A DNA stretch of 64,000 nt, taken from the IMG/VR virus record IMGVR_UViG_3300025941_000667, positions 14,218 through 78,217 of that record. One strand, given 5' to 3'. The DNA is from a virus. Under the pieces are notes generated by a model that worked only from the letters and a program-made list of their open reading frames with translations, was not told the DNA's origin and did no database searches. Made by a program: the position numbers and the translations under genes. Below are positions 1 to 14,397 of this stretch, in pieces; the first letter of the stretch is position 1, and every line of letters starts with the position of its first letter.

Positions 1-3000
1 GAGATATCCCGCAAGTTCCTGCCGTCGCGTGCCGAATGTTTCTTGAAGGTCAGCCATCTTCCCAGTTTACTAGGAGAAGGAGGGACAGGGGGAGCCATAC
101 CGGGAAGATAGGAGGCTTTTGGGGCAGCAACACGGAAGGTGGGGATCTCTCCGTTCTCGTCAGCGAAGATGTCCGCACGCTTCACTTGCTGGCTTGGATT
201 AAATGAAATCTCGGGAGTCACGTAATCCATGAGGGCGCCGGAGCGAATCAACTTCGTGGCGGCGGCATACATTTTATCAGTCCCGGTAGCTACGCTCGGT
301 TGTTCCACATACGCAAACGCCTCTGCCGCACCAAAGCGCAGCAATCCTGCTTTGAGATGGGCTTTTGCTTTCTCTGTGTCGAGGAAGGTCTGTTCATGGA
401 TAGATTGGGCGGCACGGACACGCCCCGTTGCATCACGGTACACGATAGCGACCCAGCCCGTAGGAGCTTGGAGTTCTTTTCCGACGAGTGCGACACTTCC
501 ACTACCTAGAACCATTTTCCCTAACACCTCATGTGGAATTGGCGCTTGATTGGGCTCAAGGGGGTCTTCCGTGCCAGTCACGGAACGATCAAGCGCATAG
601 TGAGTAGATTTGCCTTTGGGATCAATATAGGCATAGGTGTCAAAGTTAATAATGACATGACCGGCGTAGCGGCCACCACCTCCTTCCCTATCCAAGAGTG
701 CAGGGACAACGGAAGAAAAACGGCGATCATCACCAGAAGGGGCAGGATTGCCTCCCGGGTGATTATGAGACAACCACCATTTGACGTTTCCGTTGCCATT
801 GTCTTCTATCTTCAGAATTCGATCTTTGATGTTTTGGATAAAGGCAGATTCTTGTCCTTTGGGAATGACCTGCACGGTTCCAGGAAGCCGCGAGGTAAAC
901 GCTTCATGATCCACGACCTTCCCTTCTTGGGCGTAGACGATATGGAAGGTTTCATACTGCTTGTTCCGGTAGACACGGGCAATGGTGGCAAGGTCTTGGG
1001 CGGTGCGTAACTCTTGACCGTGCAGCGTTATGAACCCTTTCTCTTCGAGGTCCGTGCGGATCGCTTGTGCTGTCGTAATAACGTCTGGAGTTCCTCGGTC
1101 CCGCCCAAGCGTTCCTCCTGCAGTGGATAGGTCTTCGGCTGACGGGATAAGCTGCTGGGTGAGCTGCTCGGCGTGGACTTTGGCGTCGGCTCTGGTTTTG
1201 GGTTCTGGGAAGAGTGCAATTTGTTCATAACTTGACTGTACCTGATCCGGCCCATACTCTGCCGTCGGTTCAGACACGCCTTCTATCTTCAAATGATTTT
1301 CAGTCGCTACGCGAAACGCCATTGCTTTTTCAGCAGTGGGGAACAGAAATCCTTTAGCAAACCGACTCCAACCTCCACTGTTCGCTTTTGCGAAGCCTGC
1401 AACCTTCGCATACTGGTCTGAAGACAATGTCGGGCGGATATTCACCTTCTGAACAGTTTTATTGATACGAGTATCGAGATGTTCTGTTTGAGTAGTGAGC
1501 GGCTTCGGGCCTGCCGGTTCGCCTTGCGGGGGCAAGGTGGCACCGCGACTTGTGAGCTGGTCCGCAAGATTTTCCTGTCGAGACGGCATATTTATATGCT
1601 CAATACGATCAAACAGCTCGTTGATCGTTTTGGCGTCGGAGAGATCAAGATGCGGCCCGTCGGGGATCTGCCTGACTGCCTCTGGAGTGCTGGCTTTCTG
1701 CAACACCACAAGCCGCGTATTCACCCCTGTCCCAGCCCGCTCGAAGGTGACAGAGGGAAGATTGATCGTTGCTATGGGATAGACATTCCCGCCGGGTTCT
1801 TTGCTATCCAGCTCTTGAAATTGTTCCCAGCGCCTATCTGCCATCCCACCACGGGGCAGTATCGCGACAATGCGGCCCCCTTCTGCAAGATGCCCGGCGG
1901 CTTTAATCAGATGCTCAAATGCTGTCTTGCCTCCGGACCCGTACGGCGGGTTCATAAGAATCGCTTGATACTTATTGCTTACATGGTGATTCTCGAACGT
2001 ATCTTCAATGACGGTCGCCTTATTATTGGCAAGTCGCGCACGGTTCGCGAGTTCAGCGGATGGTTCAATCAGTTTCGTGGTCGTATCTTCCGGGATAAAG
2101 CGTCCGATGGCGCCATGGCCGGCAGACGGCTCTAACACATGATTACCTTTACGAATATCGGCAAACTCGACCATTTTGAAGCCGATAGGTTCCGGCGTCG
2201 GGAAGTAGTCTTGGCCTGCCCGTTGGTCGCGGCGGGCGTTGAGTTTTTGTTGCGCCCAGTAATACGTTTTTGCTTTGGCGAATCCTGTCAGCGTTTGTTG
2301 CGCGGCCACGGACTTGTCGTACTCTTTGCCGCCTGTTCCTTCTCCTTCGTAAGGCGTGAAATGCTCAGCTCCGCCATAGGCGTCAATGAACGACTGCCGG
2401 AGGCCACGAGCAAGCACGCCCATACCGAGGTTCTCGGCAGTAGAAGCCCGCTGCGCAATGGACGTAGCAAAAGCGCGGGTTTCCCAGGACGTACCGGTGG
2501 TCATGTAGCGCTGGATCGCATTCGAGGCTTGCCCGATACGATAAATTCGCCCTTCTATTTGAATAGTCGCGACAGGCCGGGATGGCATGCCGAGATTGAT
2601 ATTGACACGCTGATATTTGCCAGTCGTATCATGCAGGCTAATCCCTTCGCGGCCCGCATCGGACTGCACCACAATAATACGATGGGGGTCAGCACCGGGC
2701 TGTTCTGAGTTGAATTGATCAATAGCTTGGCTGCGTTTTTTCTTTGGGACGGTTCCGTTGAAAAAGACCGCTTCAGGGAAGGCTTTTTTCAACGTATCAA
2801 TGGGCGCTTCAAGGTCACTAAAATCCAGATTCGCAAGATCGGTATGCTCTCGGTTGAATTTGTCAATCAGGTCATGGGTATACCAAGTTTCCGTCTTATA
2901 GGTTCCGTTCGACTGTTTGACGGGAATAGTCTGTGCTTCGTTGACGTAATCTTTCTTCTCAAACTTGAATGGATGAAATCCACCGCCTTTGTTGAAGTCG

Positions 3001-6000
3001 TGGAACACAACGACTTTTCGGCCAAGATCCAGATGCGCCTGAATCTGGGGAATCGCCTCTTTTGCTTTGATCGCCTCAAGCAAGAATTGCCGTTTGTGAA
3101 AATCGAAGTTCTGTTCTGCGACTCTATAGAGCGGGTCAAAGACACCGCCGCTACCATTGCGGAGAATGTCAAGTCCGCGGTCAATGTCCTGACCAATCGC
3201 GGAAGGGGTGAGAACGAAGCGCCGATCATAATCAAAGGGGACATCGAGTTGACGGCCAACAAGCGCGCCTTGGTCCTGGAGCCATTGATTAAAGTTCTGC
3301 TCCATGATTTCTGAGTTGACATCGGCAGTCGGCTGTGTGAGTTTGCCAGTCCGCATTCGATAGCCGAAATGCTGGATCATGAAGGCTTGTTGTTTGTCAG
3401 GTGCATTGTAACCGCTACCACCCCGAAGTCCTTCCTGAAAGATGCGGGATGGCGGAACATAATGGAACAGGAATCCTTCTGCGGCATCGACGTTTGGCGC
3501 CCACGCAAATGGGGTCGCGGACAGGAACGTCACCAGCGGGCGATCACCTTCCTGCCAACGTTTTTGATAGAGCGGGCGCTCGCGCTTTTCAATCGCATGA
3601 ACGGCATCGCCTGCTTCTTGGATTTCCCGTTCCATCGCCATGATTTCTTGGTCTGTGGCATCCTGAGAGACATGACGCATGGCCTGTGCAACACGATCAT
3701 AGCGTTCGTATTCTCTCGGATACGCCGTGCGCGCCCAATCAAGAAACGCTACATGGTGCCCTGTCAGTGCGCGAAACATGCGGAGTGTTTCATTGACCGC
3801 GCCCGTTTTCTCGCTCGACATACTATGGGATTCGTCAAGAATAATGAGATCCCAGGTCCGGGGCGCCACGAGCGAAATGTTTTGGTGCATGTTGGCGTAG
3901 GTCGTCACCACCGGGCCACTGCCGCCATTCTCTGTTGTACTTGTCAGAGGGCGAAGGGGGAGCCCGACCAACGCTGCCCGAGTCGCCCACGTTTCCACGA
4001 GTTCTTGCGTCGGAGCAAGCACGAGAATGTTCTTTTTGCCTGCCAAGAATTGACGGTAGGCAATGCCAAGCCCCGTAAACGTTTTGCCGGTCCCAGGTCC
4101 ATTGGTGAACAGCATGCCGTGCTCTTTGACTTTTCCGTCCGCATCAAAGAACCGTTGCTCAGCTTTGAGCACGTCGTTTTGCTGTTCAGGCAGGAGGTAA
4201 GGAACGGTGCGGGCTATGTCTCGGGCGTCTCCGAAGGTGGGGCGTTTGTCAGCATCGGGGAGGGCGTTGAAGTCCTGTTGTCGGGCAAGACGCTCTCCTT
4301 CTGTGGCTGTACCAAGTTCTTGAACATCGTCAACAATGTCTGCTGTTCGCTGTTCGTCAGTGGGTGATCCCGCTTCGCCGCCGCCACTGCTTCCGCTGGG
4401 CTCGTTATCTCCGGTAGCGGATTTCTCAAGGTCAAGTTGGCCGTCTGGTGTATATACTCGCTGATTGCCTGATGTTCCGCCAGCAGCGGGGCTAGTGTCT
4501 GGTACGCCACGATCACCGGCGACGAGAGGCCCTGTGCCCGTAGCGCCTTGGCCTGTTCCTGTAATGTTTGGTTGAGTTCCTCCTGGTTCATTGAGAACAG
4601 GCGATGGAGCGCCGGGTGTTTCAGGTGGACCGTTCGGGCGATCCGGTTCAGGACTGGGGCCGCGATGTGGTACATTCTGTTTCTCCTGCTGTAAGTCGTG
4701 ACGAAGGCGCCGCAGATAAGGGACGGCATTTTGTCCATACGTTGTAATCGCGTCACGAAAGAAATCGGTTAAGGGGCGACCCATTTGCGCAAAATCATCA
4801 AGCGTCTCCAGTAGCAGCGGCTTCACGCGCTCGTAGCGAGCCTCATCCGGGACGGGAGGAGGCGCAGGCGCACCATACGGCGCGTTCTCCTCTTTAAGGG
4901 AGCCGAACTCTTGCAATAATTGCAGTTCGCGCGCAACGCGGGCGGGGGTAGGATCAATCCCTTTATTGACCAAGGATTGCCGAGCTTGCTCTTCAGGGGT
5001 GGCTTGCACTTTCGGAGTACGCGGAGCACGGGGGGCGCGAGGAGGGACAGACGCGCCTTGTGGTCGGGACGCGCGAGGAGGACGAGGAGTCGCAGGAGGA
5101 GCTGGTGGCTGTGCTTCTTGAAGGGCGTTCTCGAAATCATCGTCGGACAAATCAGTGACCGCGGCCCGAGAGGACGCGGGCGCCGCTACTGGAGCGGGCG
5201 GTTCTTCAGCAGGGGACTCACCGGGGGTGGTGGGTTCGGGAACTTCACCCTCGGGGCCAGTTTCGGGGCTGGGAGGCTCACCCTGTGTGCTGGGACTAGA
5301 TGGGGGTGTTGGTTCTGGAGCCGTTGGTACAGCGCCTGGAGTACCTTCTGTTGTACTAGCGGGTTCGTCTGAGAAAAGCGAAGTTTGACCACCGCCTGTT
5401 TCTCCTTCATAAGTTAAGGCCGCACTCCACAAGTCGGCCTTGCTGGGAGTCGGCCCTTTGGGTCCAAACAATTCATGTTGCCGGGGATCGCCTGTTGTTT
5501 CAACGGCATCGAGATACCGGGTAATGAGTGAACCGAGTTTCTTTCCACTGCGTGCATACTTCTCTAGGGTATCCAGCACGTCTTTTTCAAATGGGGTCGC
5601 CTTCGGAGCACCAAACAAAGCGCCTTGTGGATTGTTCAAGTAATTATTGACATTAATGCCCTTCGCCCGCAGACTCGACAGCGTATTTGCGGCAGTGGCA
5701 AGGTCGGAGGCGATGTTCAACGGATAGCGAGCGCCTGCGTCAATGCGCTCTTGGAGCTTCACAAACCGGGGCGCGGTGACCACCAGCGCATTCATGATGG
5801 CTTTGACATTTGCGTCAGGGTCTTCCCCGATCCGAGTCACCATCTCAGGATTGCCGTAGGCTTTCGCAATGATCGCGTTCCGTACTCGCTGAATGCCGGT
5901 GGTATTAAGACCGCTGCCGTCCTCCATGTAATAGTTCGGCCACTCATTCTTAGGGACGAGGTCCGTAAAGAACTGGTTAATGAAACCGGCATTTTGGGCG

Positions 6001-9000
6001 CTGTTCAGGTTGCCGTCTTCGGCTGGAACAAACTGCCGCACGAGTTCAGGACTCATGTTCTTTGCGTCCATGAACGCAATTTCTTTGGGCGACATACCGG
6101 CCACGCCAGGATTGTTGGCCTCCTGCGCAAACTTGACCCGGTTCGGAACTTCGGTCTGTCGAACCCGCACCAAGACAGGTGCTTTCATGTTCTGGATAGC
6201 CTGCGGGTCGAGACCCCAGCGGGGCGCATTGTCTACGAGCCACTGTTTGTAGTCGCCCGCCGTGCCGCGGGCGTAGGCTTTACGCAGCCCCATGGTGCGG
6301 CCATTGCCGCTTTCTACGGTCTTGTCAGGGCCAACAATCGGAGCACCGGGAGATGGGGTAGGTGTATCGCCTAGCCGGGCAGTATCAGGCTTATTCCCAA
6401 TCTCTTCCACTTGAAGACGAAGTGATTGTTGATCACGGTTACGTGGTTGCAGTTCCTGCGGGTAATCAGGATTTGCGCGGTAATTGTCATCGTGCGAGGT
6501 CACCAAGTCAGGCGCTTCCGCAACAGCTAACCGGGTATCAAATTTTGTCCCTGCTTCGGTGGTCACAGGATGGGGGTGGCCCATCAGGAAGCCGGAAGGG
6601 GTTTCTTGTGGAGGCGGTTCTTGACTTTGTGAAGAGGATTGTGGTATAGTAAGGGGTGCTCCCAGTTCTGAACTAGGAGCACCAGACACGTTACTCGTAG
6701 GAGGAGCAACATGCCCTTGATCACTTGTGTCTGTTTTTTCTGTGGGACTCAATTTTTGCGGCGGCCTTCCCAAATCACTCGGGGAAGGGACCATACTTTC
6801 TGTGGTCTGCCCTGCCATTTTGCGTATCGTCGTGTCGGCAATATCACTGCGAAGGGATATCGAGTTTTTCGGATCAAAGACAAGCGGATCTCCGAGCACC
6901 GCTTGGTCATGGAGCGACACTTGGGACGACGACTTGATCCCACGGAGGACATTCATCACATTGACGGGAACGGACTGAACAACGCTATTGAAAATTTGAG
7001 GGTCATGCAGCGCTCTGATCACAACGCTCATCATCATCCGTTGACTTGGGATATCGAAGCCGCCAAGGCCATGCTCACGAAAGGCCGGACTGTTCGAGAA
7101 CTCGCGCAGACGATCGGCGTCAGTGAGAGTGCTATCGCGCATGCCTTGAAAAGGCGCAACATTTCCGTGAATAGGCTGAGGAAGGACGGGATGAACAGGA
7201 AAATTGAGGCTGCCCGCGCCTTGCGGGAGCAAGGATGGACCTTCCGGCGCATTGCTAGGGAGTTGGGTTTCTCCCTCAGTTATCTTTTTCGTGCTTTGCG
7301 GTAACGATGACTCTTCTTTTGCGCTGGAAAGCGCGGTTTGGTGTGGCAGTTGCTCTTGACTTGGCGCAGGCTCTTCTGTCTGTTGTTCCGGCGTAGGAGC
7401 AGGTGCTTCTTGTGGAGCAGGTCCAGCTTCTACGACTTTCGGAGGTTCGTCCACTTTAGGAGATTCGAATTTCGGAGCCTCAGTTTCGAGAGGGGCTATG
7501 GGTTTCTCAGGAGCAGTCGGGACTTGGATAGGCGGCTTCTTTCCGCGTGCTAACGCTTCCGCAACCGTGCGCAGCTGGGCAGGCTGCATCTTATCCAAAT
7601 GGGATTCCCCCGTGAGTTGCTTTGTCCACTCACCAAACGCTGGATTCTTCTCCGCATCGGATTCTATCCCATGACGCTGTGCAATCGTATGGATATCTGT
7701 TGGACGTAAAGTGTATTCATTGCCCGGCTCAATAGTCTTATTAAGATTAGGATGTGCCTCAGTTGGAGCCTCTTCTTTTGTCGCTGGAGACAATATGGGT
7801 TCCGGCGCTGTCGGTGGAGTAACTGGTGGCGTTACCGGAGCTTCCTGCTTCGCCTTCGGCTGTATCCCGACCTCTTCAATCATCTTCCGCAACGGACTCG
7901 CCTGCTTGATAGAGATGCCAAGTTCTTTACGAATTTCGGATATAGTTGGAACTCGACCAAGCCCCTGCGCATACTGGAGTGCGCGTTCTTCGAGACTGCC
8001 GGCGGGAGGAGCAGCAAGTTTTACTTGGGGCGGCTGTGCAACAATCGGGGGTGGCGACTGGGTCGATACTGGGGAAGTGGACTGCGCTGCATTGACATCT
8101 CGGAGAAATGGAGAGTCTTCAGGAACATCTACATAACGGATTTTCTTTCCGTTGACCGTCACAGTTGTGAGCGAGTATTTCTTCGGAAGACTCGCGGCGA
8201 GATTAGGAAAATCGGACTCATACAAACGCGCCATCCCTGGAGGAATACGCCCTTCACCATATTTTGGCGCTGGGGATGGCGCTTGTTCAGGTTGAACAGG
8301 GGGCTGTTCAGTTTTTGGCGCTGCCTGTTCAGTTTGAGGAGCCGGCTGTTCAAGAGGGGCGCCCTTTGCGGGTGGGGGGAGTGTAGGCGGCTGCGGGCCA
8401 GCTGGACGGAGCTTACGATAAGCCTTATCAATCGCTGACGTCTCTTGCGGCGTCAGATTCTTGACTTCCAACCACTTTGAGTAGAGTTCTTGGGCTTCGG
8501 GACCAAGAGCGGCAATGTCTTGTGGGGTGAGTTCTTGCCCGTCAGTCCAGCGGGTCAGTGCTTGATTTTGTGGGTCATTTGCCGGGGCATTCTTCCGTAT
8601 ATTTTTGAGCGTAGAACGAAGATTACTAGCAACCGCATCAACTGGCGCATCGTTAGGTAATCCCAAATCCTTTTTAAGGCCAAGATATTCCCGTTCACCT
8701 AATGACAACGGACGACCAAGAATAGACGAAGCCGAGAGTGGTTCACCAACAGCTTTTACACCAAGAGCAAAGCCACCGAGTTGCCCCGCCTGTTCACCGA
8801 TCGCTTTCCCGCGCGCAGCGCCCGCAGGTCCACCAAGTGCACCTCCTGTCATTGTCCCAGCAACTTCAGTAAGTGGGGTGAGCGCTTTCGCTGCCGCCAT
8901 GCCACCCACAATACCCATCGGGTGAGTAGCTAAGGCAGGAATCATGGAAAGTGCAAGAATATCGCCAACTCCAGGATTTGGTTCCGACGGTGGTGGCGTT

Positions 9001-10022
9001 TCTCCAGGTTGTGTTCCCATTGGCGGCAAAGGTTCCATACCCAGAGGCGAAGGAGGACCACCAAATGTTTTTTCATAGGCGCGTTCGAGCTGGGAAAGCA
9101 GAGGAATCCCCATTCCTTCAGGCGCTGATTTCTTTATTTCAGGAATCTGTCCAGGAATCCGCCACTGTGTATCAGGAGAAACAAGAGGAGGAGAAGTCAC
9201 AGGAGCAGGGGTGGCAGGCGGGAGACTCGCTCCTGTGACTGGGGGGACAACGGGAGGAGCTGTAGGTTGGGAAAGAACGGGGAGAGGCGCACCAAAGGCG
9301 CCAAGCAACGCGCCGGTCTCTCCAGTAGGTAACTGTTGAGGAAAGAGGTCGGGGGCCGGGGCAGGCGGCATAAACTCTTTCGGAACAACACCCCCAAAGG
9401 TTTTCGCGTAGCGATAGGGGGCTTCGGCTTGTTCTTGAGGAGATAACGCCGCAAACTCCGGCGACTTGATAATCTCGGAAAAAGGAGGAGGAGTGGTCGA
9501 GACCGGCGCGGACGGTGCAGACTGCCCCGCGCTGGTAATCCGCGCCAGATAATCGCGGGTTTCCGGAGGAATACCACGTTCCCAATCAAACTCACCATAC
9601 TTGTTAATTGCGGCCTTGACCGTACCAATCCCCGCATTGTAGGCAGCCAGCGCTTTGCGCTTTGACCCCAATTGGTCAATCAGCGACCGCATGTACTTTG
9701 CCTGCCCATACATACTCAGGTCAGGGTCGGAAGGGTCAACACCCTGTTCTAGCGCGGTCGCGGGGACGAACTGACTGACACCCTGCGCGCCCGCAGGCGA
9801 ACGAGCAGCATTCTTCCAGTTACTTTCTTGTTGAATTTGACGGGCAAAAACATCAGGGTCGAGTCCATAGTGTTCCGCAGCGCGAGCAGCAACAGACTTA
9901 CCAAAAGTATCGACATACCTCTGGGGGGCCTCTTTTTGTTGCTGGGGAGTGAGCGCCTGAAATTCAGGCGAGCGCATGATCTCTGCAAGAGATGGGGGAG
10001 CCAGTGGTGTCTGTTCAGCCAT
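1..10022 (-). CDS. Giant polyvalent (DarB/DdrB-like) ejected protein, >3,340 aa, 3' end outside window
   Basis: ATG at 10022, preceded by AAGGTG (MAEQTPLAPP...). I checked the frame by hand over 1-120, 4141-4800, 6541-7380 and 7441-7800 and found no stops. Its absence from the ORF track fits an ORF with no in-window stop. Motifs: SLT (QIQQESNW, GAQGVSQF, ALAAYNAG; ~9530-9900); DdrB-like ParB (VTSHD..NPDYPQELQPRNR..GAPIV..VESGNGRTMGL; ~5900-6560); SF2 helicase (GPGTGKT, DESH, LSATP, IQIEGRIYR; ~2400-4170); N6-MTase (DYFPTP, LEPSAGHG, NPPY; ~1750-2260); JAB/RadC (HNHPGGNPAPSGDD; ~720-770). Confidence 0.9.
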   Translation of the reverse strand, partial: MAEQTPLAPPSLAEIMRSPEFQALTPQQQKEAPQRYVDTFGKSVAARAAEHYGLDPDVFARQIQQESNWKNAARSPAGAQGVSQFVPATALEQGVDPSDPDLSMYGQAKYMRSLIDQLGSKRKALAAYNAGIGTVKAAINKYGEFDWERGIPPETRDYLARITSAGQSAPSAPVSTTPPPFSEIIKSPEFAALSPQEQAEAPYRYAKTFGGVVPKEFMPPAPAPDLFPQQLPTGETGALLGAFGAPLPVLSQPTAPPVVPPVTGASLPPATPAPVTSPPLVSPDTQWRIPGQIPEIKKSAPEGMGIPLLSQLERAYEKTFGGPPSPLGMEPLPPMGTQPGETPPPSEPNPGVGDILALSMIPALATHPMGIVGGMAAAKALTPLTEVAGTMTGGALGGPAGAARGKAIGEQAGQLGGFALGVKAVGEPLSASSILGRPLSLGEREYLGLKKDLGLPNDAPVDAVASNLRSTLKNIRKNAPANDPQNQALTRWTDGQELTPQDIAALGPEAQELYSKWLEVKNLTPQETSAIDKAYRKLRPAGPQPPTLPPPAKGAPLEQPAPQTEQAAPKTEQPPVQPEQAPSPAPKYGEGRIPPGMARLYESDFPNLAASLPKKYSLTTVTVNGKKIRYVDVPEDSPFLRDVNAAQSTSPVSTQSPPPIVAQPPQVKLAAPPAGSLEERALQYAQGLGRVPTISEIRKELGISIKQASPLRKMIEEVGIQPKAKQEAPVTPPVTPPTAPEPILSPATKEEAPTEAHPNLNKTIEPGNEYTLRPTDIHTIAQRHGIESDAEKNPAFGEWTKQLTGESHLDKMQPAQLRTVAEALARGKKPPIQVPTAPEKPIAPLETEAPKFESPKVDEPPKVVEAGPAPQEAPAPTPEQQTEEPAPSQEQLPHQTALSSAKEESSLPQSTKKITEGETQLPSNAPEGPSLLPQGAGSLNFPVHPVLPQPIHGNVAPFQGMRDSTLTDADRLREFSNSPAFREHGLGGFDIPSQRMMMSVVIRALHDPQIFNSVVQSVPVNVMNVLRGIKSSSQVSLHDQAVLGDPLVFDPKNSISLRSDIADTTIRKMAGQTTESMVPSPSDLGRPPQKLSPTEKTDTSDQGHVAPPTSNVSGAPSSELGAPLTIPQSSSQSQEPPPQETPSGFLMGHPHPVTTEAGTKFDTRLAVAEAPDLVTSHDDNYRANPDYPQELQPRNRDQQSLRLQVEEIGNKPDTARLGDTPTPSPGAPIVGPDKTVESGNGRTMGLRKAYARGTAGDYKQWLVDNAPRWGLDPQAIQNMKAPVLVRVRQTEVPNRVKFAQEANNPGVAGMSPKEIAFMDAKNMSPELVRQFVPAEDGNLNSAQNAGFINQFFTDLVPKNEWPNYYMEDGSGLNTTGIQRVRNAIIAKAYGNPEMVTRIGEDPDANVKAIMNALVVTAPRFVKLQERIDAGARYPLNIASDLATAANTLSSLRAKGINVNNYLNNPQGALFGAPKATPFEKDVLDTLEKYARSGKKLGSLITRYLDAVETTGDPRQHELFGPKGPTPSKADLWSAALTYEGETGGGQTSLFSDEPASTTEGTPGAVPTAPEPTPPSSPSTQGEPPSPETGPEGEVPEPTTPGESPAEEPPAPVAAPASSRAAVTDLSDDDFENALQEAQPPAPPATPRPPRASRPQGASVPPRAPRAPRTPKVQATPEEQARQSLVNKGIDPTPARVARELQLLQEFGSLKEENAPYGAPAPPPVPDEARYERVKPLLLETLDDFAQMGRPLTDFFRDAITTYGQNAVPYLRRLRHDLQQEKQNVPHRGPSPEPDRPNGPPETPGAPSPVLNEPGGTQPNITGTGQGATGTGPLVAGDRGVPDTSPAAGGTSGNQRVYTPDGQLDLEKSATGDNEPSGSSGGGEAGSPTDEQRTADIVDDVQELGTATEGERLARQQDFNALPDADKRPTFGDARDIARTVPYLLPEQQNDVLKAEQRFFDADGKVKEHGMLFTNGPGTGKTFTGLGIAYRQFLAGKKNILVLAPTQELVETWATRAALVGLPLRPLTSTTENGGSGPVVTTYANMHQNISLVAPRTWDLIILDESHSMSSEKTGAVNETLRMFRALTGHHVAFLDWARTAYPREYERYDRVAQAMRHVSQDATDQEIMAMEREIQEAGDAVHAIEKRERPLYQKRWQEGDRPLVTFLSATPFAWAPNVDAAEGFLFHYVPPSRIFQEGLRGGSGYNAPDKQQAFMIQHFGYRMRTGKLTQPTADVNSEIMEQNFNQWLQDQGALVGRQLDVPFDYDRRFVLTPSAIGQDIDRGLDILRNGSGGVFDPLYRVAEQNFDFHKRQFLLEAIKAKEAIPQIQAHLDLGRKVVVFHDFNKGGGFHPFKFEKKDYVNEAQTIPVKQSNGTYKTETWYTHDLIDKFNREHTDLANLDFSDLEAPIDTLKKAFPEAVFFNGTVPKKKRSQAIDQFNSEQPGADPHRIIVVQSDAGREGISLHDTTGKYQRVNINLGMPSRPVATIQIEGRIYRIGQASNAIQRYMTTGTSWETRAFATSIAQRASTAENLGMGVLARGLRQSFIDAYGGAEHFTPYEGEGTGGKEYDKSVAAQQTLTGFAKAKTYYWAQQKLNARRDQRAGQDYFPTPEPIGFKMVEFADIRKGNHVLEPSAGHGAIGRFIPEDTTTKLIEPSAELANRARLANNKATVIEDTFENHHVSNKYQAILMNPPYGSGGKTAFEHLIKAAGHLAEGGRIVAILPRGGMADRRWEQFQELDSKEPGGNVYPIATINLPSVTFERAGTGVNTRLVVLQKASTPEAVRQIPDGPHLDLSDAKTINELFDRIEHINMPSRQENLADQLTSRGATLPPQGEPAGPKPLTTQTEHLDTRINKTVQKVNIRPTLSSDQYAKVAGFAKANSGGWSRFAKGFLFPTAEKAMAFRVATENHLKIEGVSEPTAEYGPDQVQSSYEQIALFPEPKTRADAKVHAEQLTQQLIPSAEDLSTAGGTLGRDRGTPDVITTAQAIRTDLEEKGFITLHGQELRTAQDLATIARVYRNKQYETFHIVYAQEGKVVDHEAFTSRLPGTVQVIPKGQESAFIQNIKDRILKIEDNGNGNVKWWLSHNHPGGNPAPSGDDRRFSSVVPALLDREGGGGRYAGHVIINFDTYAYIDPKGKSTHYALDRSVTGTEDPLEPNQAPIPHEVLGKMVLGSGSVALVGKELQAPTGWVAIVYRDATGRVRAAQSIHEQTFLDTEKAKAHLKAGLLRFGAAEAFAYVEQPSVATGTDKMYAAATKLIRSGALMDYVTPEISFNPSQQVKRADIFADENGEIPTFRVAAPKASYLPGMAPPVPPSPSKLGRWLTFKKHSARDGRNLRDI
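4214..4675 (-). CDS. Nested same-strand alternative-frame gene, 153 aa, unknown function
   Basis: AGGAG (4687-4683) lies 7 nt before ATG 4675. The product (MYHIAAPVLNRIARTVHL...) looks helical and protein-like, while the giant frame over the same bases is a G/T/P/S linker. Confidence 0.6.
   Translation of the reverse strand: MYHIAAPVLNRIARTVHLKHPALHRLFSMNQEELNQTLQEQAKALRAQGLSSPVIVAYQTLAPLLAEHQAISEYIHQTANLTLRNPLPEITSPAEAVAAAKRDHPLTNSEQQTLLTMFKNLVQPQKESVLPDNRTSTPSPMLTNAPPSETPET
6621..6650 (+). promoter_or_regulatory. sigma70-type promoter for the nested HNH gene
   Basis: TTGACT (6621-6626), 18 nt spacer, TATAGT (6645-6650), with extended -10 TG at 6642-6643. Confidence 0.7.
6655..6683. promoter_or_regulatory. 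Hairpin at predicted 5' end of HNH transcript
   Basis: GGTGCTCC-C-AGTTC-T-GAACT-A-GGAGCACC inverted repeat; RBS AGGAGGAG follows at 6699-6706. Confidence 0.65.
6711..7304 (+). CDS. HNH homing-type endonuclease with N-terminal Zn ribbon and C-terminal HTH motifs, nested antisense in the giant gene
   Basis: CxxC...FCxxxC; EHRLVMERHLGR...DIHHIDGNGLNNAIENL...DHNAHH (HNH_3-like); two HTH-like segments (TVRELAQTIGVSESAI, TFRRIARELGFSLSYL); strong RBS. Confidence 0.9.
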   Translation: MPLITCVCFFCGTQFLRRPSQITRGRDHTFCGLPCHFAYRRVGNITAKGYRVFRIKDKRISEHRLVMERHLGRRLDPTEDIHHIDGNGLNNAIENLRVMQRSDHNAHHHPLTWDIEAAKAMLTKGRTVRELAQTIGVSESAIAHALKRRNISVNRLRKDGMNRKIEAARALREQGWTFRRIARELGFSLSYLFRALR

Positions 10023-10030
10023 GACTCACC

Positions 10031-11689
10031 TTAGCGATACATCTGCTGCAAGGCGCCCGGTATCGTGTTGACAGGAGCAGCAGCAGGAGCAGCGTTCGGC
10101 GTTGGGGGACGTCCTGTCTTGATAGTACCCCACGCTTGTTGCCATTCCGCCTTATTGCGTTGGAGAATTTGCCGCTGCGCGCTAATGACATCCGAGAGTT
10201 TTTGACCAAATGGGACCAACTTCGGGTCCATGAGCCGCACACCAGCCTTATCAATTGCTTGCTTCACTGTTGGATCTTGGAGAAGTTGGTCCCATTTGTT
10301 ACTCGGGTCCATTGCCGTACTGACATACTGTGGCGGAAGCACGGCAGCAAGTTTTTGTAAGGTTTGCGATCCCTTATTGATATCTTGCTGAATCCCTCCG
10401 GTAGACTGAGAAGCAGCAACGAGATTCGCACCACTGGCGTGACGAGATGCGCGAAAATCTAATGTCTCTGCCGGATTCATGGCAGGAAGGGGAGGATTGA
10501 GATTTTCGCGGCGCCGATTTTCTAGTATGACATCTTGCGCGAGCTCTGATTGCTTCCCCTCTAGTGAGGCTTGCTTTTGGGCATCATTCATCATGTCCCA
10601 TTTCTGCTGAGAGACCGAAGGGGGTTTCTGATGTTTCGGCTTAAAAGTACGACTTGCTTTCAGTGTTCCTTTATCCCCCACTCCTAATGTTAAAGAACTT
10701 TCCATATCACCCGCAGCGCCGGCACCTCCCCCAACTCCTCCTTGTAGGATAGCTGCGGTAGTAGCCGCTTGTCGCTTCAGTGCTTCTTGATCAGCAAGCA
10801 TCTTTGCCACGCCTCCTACTCCAGCTTGTGTCGCAGGCAACCCACCATAAATTTGCATCGCATCGGACGGCGTTGACATGGGAATGGTAGGAGGAGGTTT
10901 CACTCCAGCTCCTTCAGGTAAGGAGCCACTCGTAGGAGTCCACGTTGTGCTTGATGGTACGTCCGCATGCGGTTGAAAAATCTTCGGGAACTTGTCTGCC
11001 AAAGTGCCTTGTTTATAGATCGGCATGCCGCCAAAGTTCCCAATGGGAGGAGCCCCAGGAGTCGGCGGGGTAATCGTGTACTGCCCGCTCTGTATCATGG
11101 CTTGCGCAAGGGCTTGCCGTTGTACTCGCTCTTGTTCATCGCGGCCACCCAGCATATTGCCAAGATTCCCCGCAATCAGCGGCCCGGTCAGGTTTCCCCA
11201 GCCCATGCGCGTGCGTTTCCCAAAGATGGCCGGTCCCAGTGCACGGAGCGCCACGGCAATAGCCAAGTTACGCATATCATGGTTACCGCCGCCACTCGTA
11301 TCAAGAAAAGGGGGCGTACCTGAAGTCGGGAGTGGCGGAGCTGAAGAACGCCCGAGTACGGTATCTAAGATTGACCCCAATACTCCACCACTAGCCCCTC
11401 CCCCTGCGCCTGGAAGAGGCGCGGGCGCATCAAAGACACCTGGACCACTCCTATTAGGAAGGGGAGCGGGGGCATCGAAAACAGAGCCTGGCCCCATTGC
11501 TGTTCGTCCATCTGGTAGTGTGTGGGTAGGTCCTTCGACAATCATCCCAGGATCAACAATGGTCGGAGGCGGCTGGGCAACAATTGGCGGCATTCTTCCA
11601 GAAACCATATCAGGCAGTGAGACTCCACCACTATTAAAAAGGTTGCGAAACGATTGACCAGCATAATCCGTAGGAGTAAGACTTGGCAT
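10031..11689 (-). CDS. Putative internal virion/ejection protein (552 aa)
   Basis: G/P/A/Q-rich; lies between the nozzle and the giant SLT-containing gene, the usual position of podovirus ejection proteins. Confidence 0.55.
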   Translation of the reverse strand: MPSLTPTDYAGQSFRNLFNSGGVSLPDMVSGRMPPIVAQPPPTIVDPGMIVEGPTHTLPDGRTAMGPGSVFDAPAPLPNRSGPGVFDAPAPLPGAGGGASGGVLGSILDTVLGRSSAPPLPTSGTPPFLDTSGGGNHDMRNLAIAVALRALGPAIFGKRTRMGWGNLTGPLIAGNLGNMLGGRDEQERVQRQALAQAMIQSGQYTITPPTPGAPPIGNFGGMPIYKQGTLADKFPKIFQPHADVPSSTTWTPTSGSLPEGAGVKPPPTIPMSTPSDAMQIYGGLPATQAGVGGVAKMLADQEALKRQAATTAAILQGGVGGGAGAAGDMESSLTLGVGDKGTLKASRTFKPKHQKPPSVSQQKWDMMNDAQKQASLEGKQSELAQDVILENRRRENLNPPLPAMNPAETLDFRASRHASGANLVAASQSTGGIQQDINKGSQTLQKLAAVLPPQYVSTAMDPSNKWDQLLQDPTVKQAIDKAGVRLMDPKLVPFGQKLSDVISAQRQILQRNKAEWQQAWGTIKTGRPPTPNAAPAAAPVNTIPGALQQMYR

Positions 11690-12498
11690 TAGAAGAGACT
11701 CCCACTGTTTTGTGAGGCATTAAAGGACTTCTGGAATTCACGAATCGCCGCAGGACCAAGAATGGATTGCAATACAGACATGAGGGTATTCGAGCCACGT
11801 TCCGTAGCGCCACTGACTAACGGTCCTTCATACTGGTGAATTGCATTCGCCCCTGCTTGAATCCCTGACTGCGCGGCGTTACTGAGCCCCTCTTGTAGGT
11901 TTCCACCCTGCATTGTGTCGCGCACTTGACCCTGCGCATTCTTCACGCCGGATTGAATCTGCGCAAGTTCCGGCGCAGCGAGTATCCGTGCGGCATCCGG
12001 CAATTGACCGCTGAGCGCCATCTTGTAGAGATTGGCCGTCATGGACTGCAGCGGTCCAAAATCTTGCCAGTAATTGTTACCGAGATTCCCGGAGTAGTTC
12101 ACCATGTCGCCAAGACTCAGATAATCGCCGGGATGAATCTTCGAGAGATCGTTAATCCCGCCCCCTCCCTGCACTGAGGAATCCGAGTATGGGGAAAACT
12201 GTCCTGCGCCTGCGGTCGGAGCACCGAAAGCTAAGCCCGGTCCAGCAGCGCCCCCAGAAGGCAGAGGGGGAGGCGTATAGCTTGGAGCAGCAGTGGGGGC
12301 AGGAGACGACCCTGCGGCGCCGTAGCCGCTCATATTCGGTGACGAAGGAGGCTTCGGCGTTTTCGGCGTAGACGGAGCGGCAGACATGGATGTTGGAAAC
12401 GGTGTCGTTGGAGCCACAGCGTCATTGCCGTATCCCATACCTGGCTGGACCTTCTTCATCGAGGAAGCAAAAAAGTTAGTATTCGCTTTGCGTGCCAT
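11689..12498 (-). CDS. Putative ejection protein (269 aa)
   Basis: G/A/Q/S-rich; TAATG-coupled to the next gene; position. Confidence 0.5.
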   Translation of the reverse strand: MARKANTNFFASSMKKVQPGMGYGNDAVAPTTPFPTSMSAAPSTPKTPKPPSSPNMSGYGAAGSSPAPTAAPSYTPPPLPSGGAAGPGLAFGAPTAGAGQFSPYSDSSVQGGGGINDLSKIHPGDYLSLGDMVNYSGNLGNNYWQDFGPLQSMTANLYKMALSGQLPDAARILAAPELAQIQSGVKNAQGQVRDTMQGGNLQEGLSNAAQSGIQAGANAIHQYEGPLVSGATERGSNTLMSVLQSILGPAAIREFQKSFNASQNSGSLF

Positions 12499-12502
12499 AG
12501 TG

Positions 12503-13657
12503 TTACCTTATTTGACTAAGAGCATGAAGCAGGGCAGCGATGTTGACCCCGTGCGGCACTGGAAAGAATGCAGGGACTTGTGAGGCTTGGGGGACAGTAG
12601 ATGTATTCCCAGTCTTATCTTCATAGAGTACCTTCCCAGTCTGAGGATTCACAAGGGTATTCCCGCGCCACATACCTGCCTGATTCCCTTCGCGTGCAAA
12701 GCGCTGATACAGATCGGAAAACATTTTGGCTTGGTCATCATGAAGCGCAAGCGACGCTGCGGTAGCTTGATCTGGAGTCTGAAAAATCCCGAGATGCTTC
12801 CCGGTCTGTCGGTAGTTGCGCCGGGCTTCTCCGAGTGCAGTATAGTTGGGTTCTATCAACGCCTGACTAACGCCTGGGACATCAGACGAGGACGGTTGCC
12901 ATTTTTCAATCTCACTCGGTTCATACAACATGCGCGCATCTTCACTGACGGTAGGGACAAGGGCTTCCCCTTCTGGGGTGCCGAATGACATCGAATGCAC
13001 AGTGCTAATGGAACCGTCAGGATGCTTCACAAACGGACGGTGTAACACATCAATGTTGCCAGGCGTCAATAAACCAGGAGGGAACGGGCTTCCTGGGGGT
13101 GGAGAAAGTGGTGAACTTCCTACAGGGGCAGGCATCAGCCCTGCTGTTGCATCTTCTGGCCATCCGAGTTTCATGGCCGCTTGCACTTCAGACGGAAAAT
13201 CATTGTGGGAATAAGGTCCTTCATCAAAGGCAATGTCTCCCTTTTTATACGTCCCTACCGGGCTATCCTGTTGCGCGAGTAAACGAAAAGGTTGCGTCTT
13301 TGTCCACCCTGGCGCGGTAGGAGACGCATACTGTGAATCTTTTGAGAAACTGTGATGATACGGAGTTTTCCACACGTCTGAAAAATGCAGTTGTTTATCG
13401 TTAAGATTTTCTTTTGTTACAGCCCGCGGATCACCCGCCTGTGCTGCTTGCCACCATCCCCGGTAATCGTAATCAGATGTCGGACTTAAATCAGGTTGAA
13501 ACTCTATCTTGTTACCAAATCGTGACTGGGCAGCCTTCATAAAAATCTGCTCTAACTGAGGAGGAAGAGTTGTTTGAAACGTCGTAGCGGTAGGGTCTTT
13601 TACCCATTGATTTGCCAGCGCCCGCTGCAGCAATCCTTGAGGATCAGGTTGGGGCAT
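12503..13657 (-). CDS. Putative ejected protein with two globular modules (384 aa)
   Basis: Two modules, DYDYRGWW..HFSDVWKTPYHHSFSKDSQYA and GNIDVLHRPFVKHPDGSISTVHSMSF..LVPTVS..TGKHLGIF, which I recognise as recurring in phage virion proteins. Confidence 0.5.
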   Translation of the reverse strand: MPQPDPQGLLQRALANQWVKDPTATTFQTTLPPQLEQIFMKAAQSRFGNKIEFQPDLSPTSDYDYRGWWQAAQAGDPRAVTKENLNDKQLHFSDVWKTPYHHSFSKDSQYASPTAPGWTKTQPFRLLAQQDSPVGTYKKGDIAFDEGPYSHNDFPSEVQAAMKLGWPEDATAGLMPAPVGSSPLSPPPGSPFPPGLLTPGNIDVLHRPFVKHPDGSISTVHSMSFGTPEGEALVPTVSEDARMLYEPSEIEKWQPSSSDVPGVSQALIEPNYTALGEARRNYRQTGKHLGIFQTPDQATAASLALHDDQAKMFSDLYQRFAREGNQAGMWRGNTLVNPQTGKVLYEDKTGNTSTVPQASQVPAFFPVPHGVNIAALLHALSQIR

Positions 13658-14348: not shown

Positions 14349-14397
14349 AGGTCACCTCTCTCCCCACGTATTGGAACACAATACGAAAAAAAAAGAA

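What the first reader, a model, noticed from the sequence alone, without database searches (positions are those of the whole stretch)
4214..4687. Second gene-in-gene: 153-aa alternative-frame ORF with its own RBS just ahead of the helicase domain
Seen: AGGAG-7 nt-ATG opens a 153-codon same-strand ORF in a shifted frame, and the giant frame is also stop-free here (checked 4141-4800). The nested product looks amphipathic-helical (ELNQTLQEQAKALRAQGL, EQQTLLTMFKNL). The host frame over the same bases reads as low-complexity linker (TGTGQGATGTG, SGSSGGGEAGS). Inference: the nested frame carries the selective constraint. It could be a chaperone or inhibitor co-expressed with the helicase-MTase module.
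Basis: partly seen in the sequence, partly recalled or inferred. Interest (0 to 1): 0.7.

Follow-up and report, generated by a model that had tools for sequence, protein, structure and literature searches.

The report
Hidden gene inside giant phage gene
A real but unannotated small helical protein gene sits in a shifted reading frame inside the floppy linker just ahead of the helicase domain of this phage's 3,396-residue DarB-like protein gene. More than a hundred related loci keep the same two-frame layout, but what the small protein does is still unknown.

Summary
On the minus strand, AGGAG (4687-4683), a 7-nt spacer and ATG (4675) open a 153-codon +1-frame ORF that ends at TAG 4216-4214. 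It lies inside a stop-free 3,396-aa SLT/ParB/helicase/MTase/JAB gene. ORF length alone is not beyond chance: synonymous shuffles give P = 0.29.

Comparative evidence shows a real overlapping gene:
- The +1 ORF is present in 62 of 66 related viral loci.
- It lies inside an open -1 frame in 43 of 46 metagenome loci that were found through the small protein itself.
- Its aligned start is ATG in 57 of 60 non-redundant loci, and 53 of 60 have an SD-like motif.
- The nested peptide is better conserved than the host peptide (130 vs 50 bits).
- The most variable codon position switches to the nested frame exactly within the ORF. The omega-like ratio is 0.33 for the nested frame and 1.85 for the host frame.
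- Strain SNPs of this very phage show the same pattern.

AlphaFold2 gives a six-helix domain (pLDDT 80). No Pfam, PHROG, PADLOC, NCBIfam, PDB or TnpV relationship was found.

Function is unknown. The best guess is an accessory protein of the helicase-methylase anti-restriction module, because free-standing relatives sit beside R-M genes. This scan had already met the same family on other DNA (e1-3599676, e1-3729571). I found no paper describing it.

The parts
4683..4687 (-). Shine-Dalgarno-like AGGAG, 7 nt upstream of the nested start codon
   Evidence: Read directly. An SD-like core lies 4-12 nt upstream of the aligned start in 53 of 60 non-redundant related loci.
4673..4675 (-). ATG start codon of the nested gene (+1 frame relative to the giant ORF)
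   Evidence: The aligned position is ATG in 57 and GTG in 3 of 60 non-redundant loci. In 19 of them an in-frame stop lies within 2 codons upstream.
4313..4675 (-). Conserved six-helix domain of the nested protein (residues 1-121)
   Evidence: Alignment A2. HMM hits were found in 62 of 66 viral loci and in 46 of 46 metagenome loci. AF2 gives pLDDT 80.3 and pTM 0.69 with helices at residues 6-121. The substitution phase follows this frame. In near-identical strains, 5 of 7 SNPs are synonymous here but change the host frame.
4217..4312 (-). Non-conserved P/S/T-rich C-terminal tail of the nested protein (residues 122-153), about 24 residues longer than in most relatives
   Evidence: Alignment A2 shows that relatives end at about 124-131 aa. 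pLDDT is below 60.
4214..4216 (-). TAG stop codon of the nested gene
4214..4676 (-). Host-frame linker (giant protein residues about 1783-1936): a low-complexity, hydrophobic-poor segment encoded by the same bases
   Evidence: Across relatives the composition is G 15.9, A 12.9, S 10.5, R 10.4 and D 9.7%, with L, I, F, Y and M together about 5%. Host-frame conservation is only 50 bits, against 130 bits for the nested frame. The host frame is open across the ORF in all 54 loci examined.
3..10022 (-). Giant host gene (3,396 aa in the full record): SLT, ddrB-like ParB, SF2 helicase, N6-MTase and a weak RadC/JAB match. It is a large polyvalent, DarB-like protein.
   Evidence: Pfam. Homologues are named DarB-like, PLxRFG or LPD-containing.
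2391..4178 (-). Helicase domain of the giant protein (residues 1949-2544), starting about 12 codons after the nested stop
   Evidence: Pfam ResIII, Helicase_C and Helicase_C_4. Invariant columns in A1.
1857..2141 (-). N6-adenine methyltransferase core (residues 2628-2722) of the giant protein
   Evidence: Pfam MTS match with E = 6e-4, below Pfam's cut-off. An NPPY motif and invariant columns are present in A1.

Best explanation
Window 4214-4687 (minus strand) holds a genuine protein-coding gene embedded in the +1 frame of the giant DarB-like polyvalent protein gene.

Expression (inferred). No sigma-70-type promoter match was found nearby. Ribosomes would therefore start on the giant gene's own mRNA at an internal AGGAG-N7-ATG.

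Product. The protein has 153 aa. Its first ~121 residues fold as a mildly acidic six-helix domain.

Host frame. The same bases read in the host frame give a disordered G/S/A/R/D-rich linker between the N-terminal half and the helicase-MTase module. That linker tolerates almost any sequence, so selection acts mainly on the nested frame while keeping the host frame free of stops.

What is shown:
- dual open frames in relatives;
- a conserved start codon and SD;
- purifying selection in the nested frame;
- a confident predicted fold;
- a large, unnamed protein family.

What is inferred:
- that the protein is translated;
- its role. My best guess (about 40%) is a separately made accessory, assembly or regulatory partner of the helicase-N6-methylase anti-restriction module that it precedes. 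This would parallel the small helper proteins that P1 DarB needs.
For: (1) Presence in relatives.
- A profile of the nested protein hits a +1-frame ORF at the same place in 62 of 66 related viral loci, and in the cultured phages vB_KpnP_ZX1, Skulduggery and Vibrio 1.232.O.
- tblastn also places it in Parlo, Vibrio D274 and Ruegeria 45A6.
- The host frame is open across it in all 54 loci checked.

(2) Independent retrieval. Among 46 metagenome loci fetched through the nested protein, 43 lie inside an open frame that is always at -1 relative to it. In 33 of these the covering frame exceeds 1,000 aa or runs to the end of the fetched piece.

(3) Start signals. The aligned start is ATG in 57 of 60 and GTG in 3 of 60 loci. 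An SD-like core is present in 53 of 60. An in-frame stop lies directly upstream in 19 of 60.

(4) Which frame is conserved.
- The nested peptide scores 130 bits (52% identity, 48 loci). The host peptide over the same DNA scores 50 bits (20 loci).
- Of 11 long alternative-frame ORFs in the giant gene, this is the only one that is both better conserved than the host frame and widespread. The one other exception, the antisense HNH ORF, hits only 2 loci.

(5) Substitution phase.
- In 8 independent close pairs, the most variable position is host position 3 outside the ORF. It switches to host position 1 (nested position 3) exactly inside it. Totals are 1322/1182/2204 outside and 238/113/102 inside.
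- The helicase control gives 0.153/0.125/0.366.

(6) Substitution classes.
- Nested-synonymous, host-nonsynonymous changes: 274 observed against 137 expected.
- Nested-nonsynonymous, host-synonymous changes: 94 observed against 153 expected.
- The omega-like ratio is 0.33 for the nested frame and 1.85 for the host frame.

(7) This phage's own variants. In other soil and rhizosphere metagenomes, 5 of 7 SNPs inside the ORF are synonymous in the nested frame and nonsynonymous in the host frame. Outside the ORF, 12 of 16 SNPs are host-synonymous.

(8) Fold. AF2 on the 32-sequence alignment gives pLDDT 80.3 and pTM 0.69, with six helices. The composition is globular (L 13.6, A 13.4, E 9.2%), against a disordered-type host frame.

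(9) Family size. There are 578 clusters at 50% identity (460 at E <= 1e-10). Most are 115-140 aa and align from residue 1.

(10) Hints to function.
- Nested identity tracks helicase identity (rho 0.68) and MTase identity (rho 0.59) better than identity of the upstream part (rho 0.41).
- Mosaic junctions fall just upstream of the nested start.
- The free-standing relative P0182 lies directly upstream of hsdR-hsdS-hsdM.
- In L103, the free-standing relative lies two genes upstream of an N6_Mtase plus Methylase_S gene.
Against: - There is no direct evidence of translation. No RNA run holds the stretch, and no proteomics data were available.
- ORF length alone is within chance.
- In this window the frame is open 31 codons upstream, with a GTG at 4756. 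The start at ATG 4675 therefore rests on homology.
- The closest relative of this copy is only about 49-52% identical. The strain-SNP support rests on 7 sites from low-depth contigs.

The functional guess is weak:
- No known family, fold or motif was found.
- The conserved residues are mostly hydrophobic, plus two Glu and two Pro.
- A gut lineage keeps the small gene although the helicase-MTase part downstream is gone. That argues against strict dependence on the module.
- Adjacency to the helicase is confounded with physical linkage.
- Only two of the roughly five free-standing contexts seen are next to R-M genes.
Confidence: 0.9

Rival explanations
1. Chance open frame. The G/P/S/T/A-rich linker codons rarely create +1 stops, so a long ORF with an accidental AGGAG-ATG appears without coding for anything.
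For: Synonymous shuffles give a local +1 run of 147 codons on average, with P(>=184) = 0.29. Two other +1 runs of 160-169 codons and antisense runs of up to 350 codons occur in the same gene.
Against: - The frame, its ATG and its SD are conserved in 62 of 66 viral loci and 46 metagenome loci.
- The nested peptide is better conserved than the host peptide, unlike nine of the ten other long alternative-frame ORFs tested; the tenth, the antisense HNH ORF, hits only 2 loci.
- The substitution phase switches to this frame.
- The AF2 fold is confident.
Confidence: 0.02
2. Trans-frame product. The nested domain is not started independently. It is added by a programmed +1 ribosomal frameshift to the C-terminus of a truncated N-terminal half of the giant protein, with the SD-like motif acting as a frameshift stimulator.
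For: - The nested frame is +1 to the host frame.
- An SD-like element lies upstream. SD elements stimulate frameshifting in prfB and dnaX (my own knowledge).
- In this window the +1 frame is open for 31 codons before the ATG.
Against: - A start codon sits at exactly the first conserved residue in 60 of 60 loci (ATG in 57).
- SD spacing is 5-9 nt, which is typical of initiation.
- In 19 of 60 loci a +1-frame stop lies within two codons upstream of the ATG.
- Gene callers find hundreds of 115-140-aa proteins that start at residue 1.
- Free-standing versions exist.
Confidence: 0.04
3. Selfish insertion. The segment is a mobile cassette that inserted into the giant gene, keeps the host frame open and carries its own gene. 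The model is the ShiLan insertion with a hidden out-of-frame HNH in phage methylases (PMC11855218), or the antisense HNH ORF at 6672-7301 of this same gene.
For: - The precedent in PMC11855218.
- The same giant gene carries an antisense HNH ORF that is conserved in only 2 relatives.
- Free-standing and fused copies of the domain exist elsewhere.
Against: - The protein has no nuclease, recombinase or other mobility motif and no match in any library.
- Its position is fixed, typically with the stop 59 nt before the helicase motif, across relatives whose helicases are only 32-53% identical.
- Its divergence tracks that of the helicase and MTase, as expected for old vertical co-inheritance. It does not have a patchy, homing-like distribution (62 of 66 loci).
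Confidence: 0.04
4. A real gene, but functionally unrelated to the helicase-methylase module. It would be an independent host-takeover or anti-defence effector, or a regulator, that merely uses the tolerant linker as spare coding space and rides on the giant gene's transcription.
For: - A gut-metagenome lineage keeps the small gene intact although the downstream helicase-MTase part is lost.
- Domain fusions in free-standing relatives point elsewhere: tandem duplication plus DUF6794 and a weak J-domain.
- The scan's earlier notes report other unrelated small genes (TnpV-like) in linkers of polyvalent genes. That suggests linkers are generic hosting sites.
Against: - The fixed position directly before the helicase, and co-inheritance with it at mosaic junctions.
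- Stand-alone helicase genes lacking the linker also lack the small gene.
- Two free-standing copies lie next to type I R-M or N6-MTase genes.
Confidence: 0.35

Closest known systems
Rz1 embedded in Rz (lambda-type two-component spanin genes, embedded class; PMC6139136, PMC9144972)
   Same: A complete small phage gene with its own start lies wholly inside a larger same-strand gene in the +1 frame, and both products are made.
   Different: - Rz and Rz1 are a known interacting pair with a known lysis role, and the host gene is small.
- Here the host is a 3,396-aa polyvalent virion-type gene and the overlap covers a disordered linker.
- The nested protein is a cytoplasmic-looking helical domain of unknown function.
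- There is no sequence relationship.
comS nested out of frame in srfAB of Bacillus subtilis (my own knowledge, not checked here)
   Same: A small regulatory gene is embedded out of frame in a giant multidomain gene and is translated from the giant gene's mRNA.
   Different: ComS is a 46-aa peptide in a bacterial NRPS gene and lies within a folded domain region. Here the product is a 125-153-aa folded domain placed over a linker, and it is conserved across many phage genera.
Hepatitis B virus polymerase spacer overlapping preS/S (my own knowledge, not checked here)
   Same: A disordered spacer of a large multidomain protein shares its DNA with a structured protein in another frame. The spacer evolves as the passive partner.
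   Different: That is an animal virus with a different genome logic, and both proteins have known functions there.
TnpV-like genes nested in linkers of polyvalent protein genes
   Same: The layout is the same: a +1-frame small helical gene with its own SD inside a linker of a giant methylase/helicase polyvalent gene of a phage or conjugative element.
   Different: It is a different protein family.
- PF14198 finds nothing in this record even at E <= 10.
- hhalign of A2 against 13 TnpV sequences gives probability 0.2%.
Ulx and the other small Dar helper proteins of phage P1 (PMC9024508, PMC12810830; P1 record)
   Same: A small protein of about 146 aa is encoded next to a DarB-type methylase-helicase anti-restriction gene and is annotated as needed with it. 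It serves as a functional analogy for an accessory role.
   Different: ulx is a separate gene downstream of darB, not nested. There is no detectable homology (hhalign probability 0.1%). P1 darB carries no copy of the nested family.
The same 129-aa nested family noted earlier in this scan on other DNA (e1-3599676, e1-3729571)
   Same: Short-word matching indicates the same protein family.
   Different: This is a different phage. This copy is 153 aa with a longer tail and is 45-46% identical to the A2 members that resemble those notes' proteins (L012, L005). Those are internal AI notes, not publications.

Membership tests
Embedded same-strand overlapping (overprinted) gene | Both reading frames are open over the shared bases, in this sequence and in relatives | tested here: met
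   Window. Host and nested frames are both open in all 54 loci checked. The nested ORF is present in 62 of 66 viral loci. Of 46 metagenome loci, 43 are covered by a -1 frame.
Embedded same-strand overlapping (overprinted) gene | Own translation start signals, conserved at the homologous position | tested here: met
   AGGAG-N7-ATG in the window. The aligned start is ATG in 57 of 60 and GTG in 3 of 60 loci. An SD-like core is present in 53 of 60.
Embedded same-strand overlapping (overprinted) gene | Purifying selection acting in the nested frame | tested here: met
   Phase switch in 8 independent pairs. Omega-like ratio of 0.33 for the nested frame against 1.85 for the host frame. Strain SNPs: 5 of 7 are nested-synonymous. 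The alternative frame is better conserved than the host frame in only one other of 11 alternative ORFs, the antisense HNH ORF (2 loci).
Embedded same-strand overlapping (overprinted) gene | The nested product is actually translated | not testable with these tools
   No RNA holder is listed. No Ribo-seq or proteomics data were available.
TnpV (Pfam PF14198) | Match to the family HMM at or above the curated cut-off (27 bits) | tested here: not met
   No match in the whole record at E <= 10. No TnpV hit for any of the 32 family members at E <= 0.1.
TnpV (Pfam PF14198) | Profile-profile similarity to bona fide TnpV proteins | tested here: not met
   hhalign of A2 against an alignment of 13 TnpV ORFs from Bacillota genomes gives probability 0.2% and E = 0.32.
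Ulx-like anti-restriction protein (phage P1) | Sequence or profile similarity to P1 Ulx | tested here: not met
   hhalign of A2 against Ulx gives probability 0.1%.
Programmed +1 frameshift product | The alternative frame is reachable from the host frame without needing a start codon (open upstream, no conserved initiator) | tested here: not met
   The initiator is conserved in 60 of 60 loci. A +1-frame stop lies within 2 codons upstream in 19 of 60.
Large polyvalent / DarB-like protein (host gene) | Many effector domains in one polypeptide, including the SF2 helicase and N6-adenine methylase dyad | tested here: met
   Pfam finds SLT, ddrB-ParB, ResIII/Helicase_C, MTS and a weak RadC match. Homologues carry LPD38, LPD39, ART-PolyVal and similar domains and are named DarB-like or PLxRFG. 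The domain order here is helicase then MTase, the reverse of P1 DarB as described in PMC5512222.
Large polyvalent / DarB-like protein (host gene) | Packaged in the virion and delivered with the DNA; anti-restriction activity | not testable with these tools
   This rests only on analogy. The JC1 DarB-like protein was found in virions (PMC9144972). PHROGs gave no hit for the 7 flanking ORFs tested here.

The most novel reading that the evidence does not exclude
The small protein is a previously unrecognised, trans-acting component of DarB-type anti-restriction. In this reading it is made from inside the giant gene in fixed proportion to it, and it controls, assembles or targets the helicase-N6-methylase module. 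Its free-standing relatives beside type I R-M systems would do the same for cellular R-M enzymes. More broadly, the disordered linkers of polyvalent proteins would be a regular hiding place for functional genes that annotation pipelines systematically miss.
Probability: 0.3. Interest if true: 0.8.

Novelty: new variant of a known kind. Interest (0 to 1): 0.72.

Why it matters
- Hidden coding capacity. Giant DarB-like or polyvalent genes take up a fifth of the genome in many podophages, including phages studied for therapy against Klebsiella, Serratia, Pseudomonas and Vibrio. They are annotated as a single CDS. A conserved second gene inside them (578 clusters at 50% identity) means these phages encode a protein that no record lists and no proteomics database contains. 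Virion or infected-cell mass spectrometry could not have found it.
- A clean natural example of dual coding. A structured protein is overprinted on a disordered linker, and the substitution phase switches sharply at the borders of the ORF. This is useful for benchmarking overlapping-gene detectors.
- A new handle on an open problem. If the protein works with the helicase-methylase dyad, it bears on how DarB-type anti-restriction works, which is still mechanistically unclear.

Tried and rejected
- ORF length as evidence: rejected. Shuffles give P = 0.29.
- Close relatives for classical dN/dS: none in viral contigs with single-protein queries. The best giant-protein homologue is 42% identical. 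I worked round this with profile-based locus retrieval and close pairs among the relatives.
- Family assignment: nothing convincing.
  - Pfam: only sub-threshold noise, for example XPC-binding at E = 0.014.
  - PHROGs: one member hits the unnamed phrog_27875.
  - No hits in PADLOC, NCBIfam, PDB sequences (best E = 0.35) or ESM Atlas.
- Fold search: no informative match. Foldseek against PDB gave best E = 1.4. BFVD gave best E = 0.69. VIA-align wide gave best Z = 5.2, on de novo helical designs. This does not show that the fold is new.
- TnpV lead from earlier scan notes: tested and not met.
- P1 Ulx: not homologous. P1 and Bcep22 regions: no copy of the family.
- Complex prediction of the nested domain with giant-protein residues 1925-2800: no verdict (score 0.00, controls not run). 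This is not evidence either way.
- RNA evidence: no RNA holder listed.
- Internal promoter: no sigma-70-like site in 4000-5400.
The contexts of most called family members (P0123 and others) therefore could not be read.
- The search for related loci with the broad alignments A3 and A2 failed for lack of a conserved stretch.
  - The genome-contig scan with A4 found only the query's own MAG.
  - The 'longer' protein search found only 2 weak hits.
  - In-frame fusions of the domain into giant proteins are therefore not excluded.
- Plasmids: one hit, a Comamonas 57.7-kb record, nested in an LPD38 protein. There was none for the L103 type.
- Bacillota genomes: 1 of 401 searched.
- PHROGs on 7 ORFs flanking the giant gene: no hits.
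Full report
**What is in the sequence**

The window is part of a 78,217-bp IMG/VR virus record. On the minus strand a single ORF runs from 10022 past the window edge and is 3,396 aa in the full record. Pfam finds these domains:
- SLT lytic transglycosylase (residues 45-145);
- ddrB-like ParB (1158-1288);
- an SF2 helicase (1949-2544);
- a small-MTase match (2628-2722);
- a weak RadC/JAB match.

This is the architecture of the 'large polyvalent' or DarB-like proteins of phages and conjugative elements (PMC5512222).

- AGGAG lies at 4687-4683, followed by a 7-nt spacer and ATG at 4675.
- It has 153 codons and ends at TAG 4216-4214.
- The stop-to-stop run is 184 codons (4768-4217).

The ORF covers host residues about 1783-1936 and ends about 12 codons before the Pfam helicase match begins.

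**Is it more than chance?**

By length, no.
- The +1 frame has only 2.5% stop codons, and two other +1 runs of 160-169 codons occur in the same gene.
- When synonymous codons of the giant gene are shuffled 2,000 times, the +1 run at this spot averages 147 codons. It reaches 184 in 29% of shuffles.

The ORF's existence alone therefore proves nothing. The decision has to come from relatives.

**Relatives**

No close relative exists in the viral collection. The best giant-protein homologues are about 42% identical over the helicase. A profile of 20 homologues (A1) fetched 66 related viral loci.

A tblastn search with the nested peptide gave the key result.
- It hits these loci much better than the host-frame peptide encoded by the same bases. 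The best scores are 130 bits (52% identity over 123 aa) against 50 bits.
- The hit is always in the frame shifted +1 from the helicase frame.

In all 54 loci with a hit:
- the nested frame is open for 122-179 codons;
- the host frame is open across it;
- in most of them, the nested stop lies a fixed 59 nt before the projected helicase N-terminal motif.

An HMM of 32 nested proteins (A2) finds the ORF in 62 of the 66 viral loci.
- The four exceptions are one fragment that lacks the region and three loci where the helicase is a separate gene without the linker.
- The HMM also finds it in the cultured phages Klebsiella vB_KpnP_ZX1, Pseudomonas Skulduggery and Vibrio 1.232.O.
- tblastn adds Serratia Parlo, Vibrio D274 and Ruegeria 45A6.
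- In every one of these GenBank records only the giant CDS is annotated.

A retrieval that did not depend on the giant protein used a 12-sequence sub-alignment of the nested protein against metagenome contigs. It gave 46 loci.
- In 43 of them the small ORF lies inside an open frame that is always at -1 relative to it.
- In 33 of those the covering frame exceeds 1,000 aa or spans the whole fetched piece.

**Start signals**

These counts are from 60 non-redundant loci.
- The codon aligned with Met1 is ATG in 57 and GTG in 3.
- An SD-like core lies 4-12 nt upstream in 53.
- In 19, a stop in the nested frame lies within two codons upstream (taaATG, tgaATG, tagATG), so the ORF can only begin at that ATG.

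This favours independent initiation over a +1 frameshift product. No sigma-70-type promoter is seen nearby in the window. The simplest reading is translation from the giant gene's mRNA.

**Which frame is under selection?**

Across A2 pairs, nested codon position 3 (host position 1) is the most variable. Nested position 2 (host position 3) is the least variable. In the 10-20% divergence bin the values are 0.114, 0.088 and 0.232. The helicase control shows the normal host-frame pattern of 0.153, 0.125 and 0.366.

I then slid 30-codon windows over eight independent close pairs.
- The most variable position is host position 3 in nearly all windows outside the ORF.
- It switches to host position 1 exactly between the nested start and stop in all eight pairs.
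- Totals are 1322/1182/2204 outside and 238/113/102 inside.

Classifying each difference in the overlap gives the following.

| Class | Observed | Expected if neutral |
|---|---|---|
| Nested-synonymous, host-nonsynonymous | 274 | 137 |
| Nested-nonsynonymous, host-synonymous | 94 | 153 |

The crude omega-like ratios are 0.33 for the nested frame and 1.85 for the host frame.

As a specificity control I ran the same tblastn test on all 11 long alternative-frame ORFs of the giant gene.
- For nine of the other ten, the host frame is at least as well conserved as the alternative frame (five give no hit in either frame).
- The antisense HNH ORF at 6672-7301 also beats the host frame, but in only two loci.

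The window's own copy shows the same signature. Contigs of near-identical strains from other soil and rhizosphere metagenomes carry 7 SNPs inside the ORF.
- Five are synonymous in the nested frame and change the host residue.
- One is the reverse.
- One changes both frames.

Outside the ORF, 12 of 16 SNPs are host-synonymous. These are few sites from low-depth contigs, so they are supportive but not decisive.

**The protein**

AlphaFold2 with A2 gives pLDDT 80.3 and pTM 0.69. It predicts six helices over residues 6-121 and a disordered tail over 122-153. That tail is about 24 residues longer than in most relatives.

The two frames differ sharply in composition.
- Nested frame: globular (L 13.6, A 13.4, E 9.2%), median pI 4.7.
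- Host frame over the same DNA: G 15.9, A 12.9, S 10.5, R 10.4 and D 9.7%, with almost no hydrophobic residues. This is a disordered linker.

Conserved columns are mostly hydrophobic plus P63, E67, P88 and E95. This looks like a binding or scaffolding domain rather than an enzyme (inference).

A profile search of 1.84 billion cluster representatives finds 578 clusters (460 at E <= 1e-10). Most are 115-140 aa and align from residue 1. Of the ten clusters whose members I looked up, the 123-129-aa ones sit mostly on short contigs.

Nothing in Pfam, PHROGs, PADLOC, NCBIfam, PDB sequences or the ESM Atlas names the family. No fold search gave a meaningful match.

**Leads on function**

(a) Linkage with the helicase-MTase module.
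- Nested-protein identity between loci tracks helicase identity (rho 0.68) and MTase identity (rho 0.59) more than identity of the 300 residues upstream (rho 0.41).
- In pairs with at least 80% nested identity, the helicase and MTase are 89-91% identical and the upstream part 69%.
- In three mosaic pairs the junction between diverged and conserved DNA falls just upstream of the nested start.
- Physical adjacency confounds this result.

(b) Free-standing relatives.
- P0182 (557 aa, with the domain at its N-terminus) lies directly upstream of hsdR-hsdS-hsdM in a Bacillota MAG.
- The L103 type (162 aa) lies two genes upstream of an N6_Mtase plus Methylase_S gene.
- L092 is a 533-aa protein with a sub-threshold J-domain match, next to a resolvase.
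- P0251 has two tandem copies of the domain plus DUF6794.

(c) A counter-example. Ten gut-metagenome loci keep the small gene intact although the giant gene is broken just upstream and homology ends about 250 nt downstream, so the helicase-MTase part is gone.

(d) Distribution. The family is rare in cellular genomes (1 of 401 Bacillota searched) and in plasmids (one Comamonas record, nested in an LPD38 protein).

(e) Known helpers and earlier leads.
- P1's small DarB helper Ulx is not homologous.
- The TnpV family, which earlier notes of this scan found nested in other polyvalent genes, is not related either. PF14198 gives no hit at E <= 10. hhalign gives probability 0.2%.

**Most likely mechanism**

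- Shown: a dual-coding segment in which a folded small protein is encoded in +1 over a linker of the giant protein. It has conserved initiation signals and is under purifying selection.
- Inferred: ribosomes initiate internally on the giant gene's mRNA, so the small protein is made whenever the giant protein is made.
- Best guess for the role (about 40%): an accessory, assembly or regulatory partner of the helicase-N6-methylase anti-restriction module.
- Main alternative (about 35%): an unrelated effector or regulator that uses the linker as spare coding space.
- A frameshift product, a selfish cassette and a chance ORF are each unlikely (5% or less).

**Comparison with what is known, and novelty**

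The layout belongs to the known kind of embedded out-of-frame genes. Examples are Rz1 in Rz, comS in srfAB and the HBV polymerase spacer over preS/S. The protein family and its host context are not described in any paper I could find, nor in any of the family libraries searched. All six cultured-phage genomes that carry it leave it unannotated.

Within this scan the same family was already met on other DNA.
- e1-3599676 is a follow-up report that reached the same conclusion, including the R-M neighbourhood of free-standing relatives.

The general theme of hidden genes in polyvalent-protein linkers recurs in the scan's notes. My conclusions rest on the tests run here, not on those notes.

**Limits**

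- There is no expression data (no RNA holder listed).
- The complex prediction gave no verdict.
- The omega-like figures are uncorrected counts on eight pairs.

Noticed in passing
window 6672-7301 (+ strand, antisense to the giant gene): This is the only other alternative-frame ORF of the giant gene whose peptide is better conserved than the host frame (89.7 vs 60.1 bits). It appears in just 2 of 66 related loci. That fits the patchy, mobile HNH cassette that other first-reader notes describe here.
   Followed up: partly
L106-L113, L119, L120 (human-gut metagenome loci); compare L108 with L114: This lineage has a broken giant gene. There is a frame change just upstream of the small gene, and homology to the intact relative ends about 250 nt downstream, with no helicase-MTase. 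The 148-152-aa small gene is nevertheless intact. It is followed by unrelated ORFs, including an M23 peptidase.
   Followed up: partly
L070:1461-3134 (Bacillota MAG JAGFZV010000017.1) and L103:3342-3830: Free-standing members of the family lie next to restriction-modification genes. P0182 (557 aa, with an internally repeated acidic C-terminal region and no Pfam match) sits directly upstream of hsdR-hsdS-hsdM. The L103 copy sits two genes upstream of an N6_Mtase plus Methylase_S fusion.
   Followed up: partly
P0251 (566 aa, ENA metagenome protein): It contains two tandem copies of the nested-family domain followed by a DUF6794 domain. The domain therefore also exists as an ordinary in-frame module outside giant genes.
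   Followed up: no
L012/L005, L021/L045, L016/L043 (pairs of related viral loci): These are mosaic relationships. The N-terminal part of the giant gene is saturated with differences, while the small gene plus helicase-MTase is nearly identical. The junction falls within about 100 nt upstream of the nested start, which suggests that the small gene and the helicase-MTase module are exchanged as one unit.
   Followed up: partly
window 3315-4364, 5568-6371, 7710-8435, 1422-2132 (+ strand): Very long antisense open frames (237-350 codons) lie opposite the giant gene. Their weak tblastn hits in relatives are always far below the host-frame score, so they look like echoes of the host frame's codon pattern, not genes.
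   Followed up: yes
window 10031-17460 and record 11077-14274 (minus strand ORFs flanking the giant gene): Seven sizeable ORFs around the giant gene (167-1020 aa) have no PHROG match at E <= 1e-5. The neighbourhood is poorly characterised.
   Followed up: no
NZ_CP083940.1 31741-32103 (Comamonas thiooxydans 57.7-kb 'plasmid'): This is the only PLSDB record with the nested family. The gene lies inside a gene annotated as LPD38 domain-containing protein. The record's size and content suggest a phage-plasmid or a circularised podophage genome.
   Followed up: no
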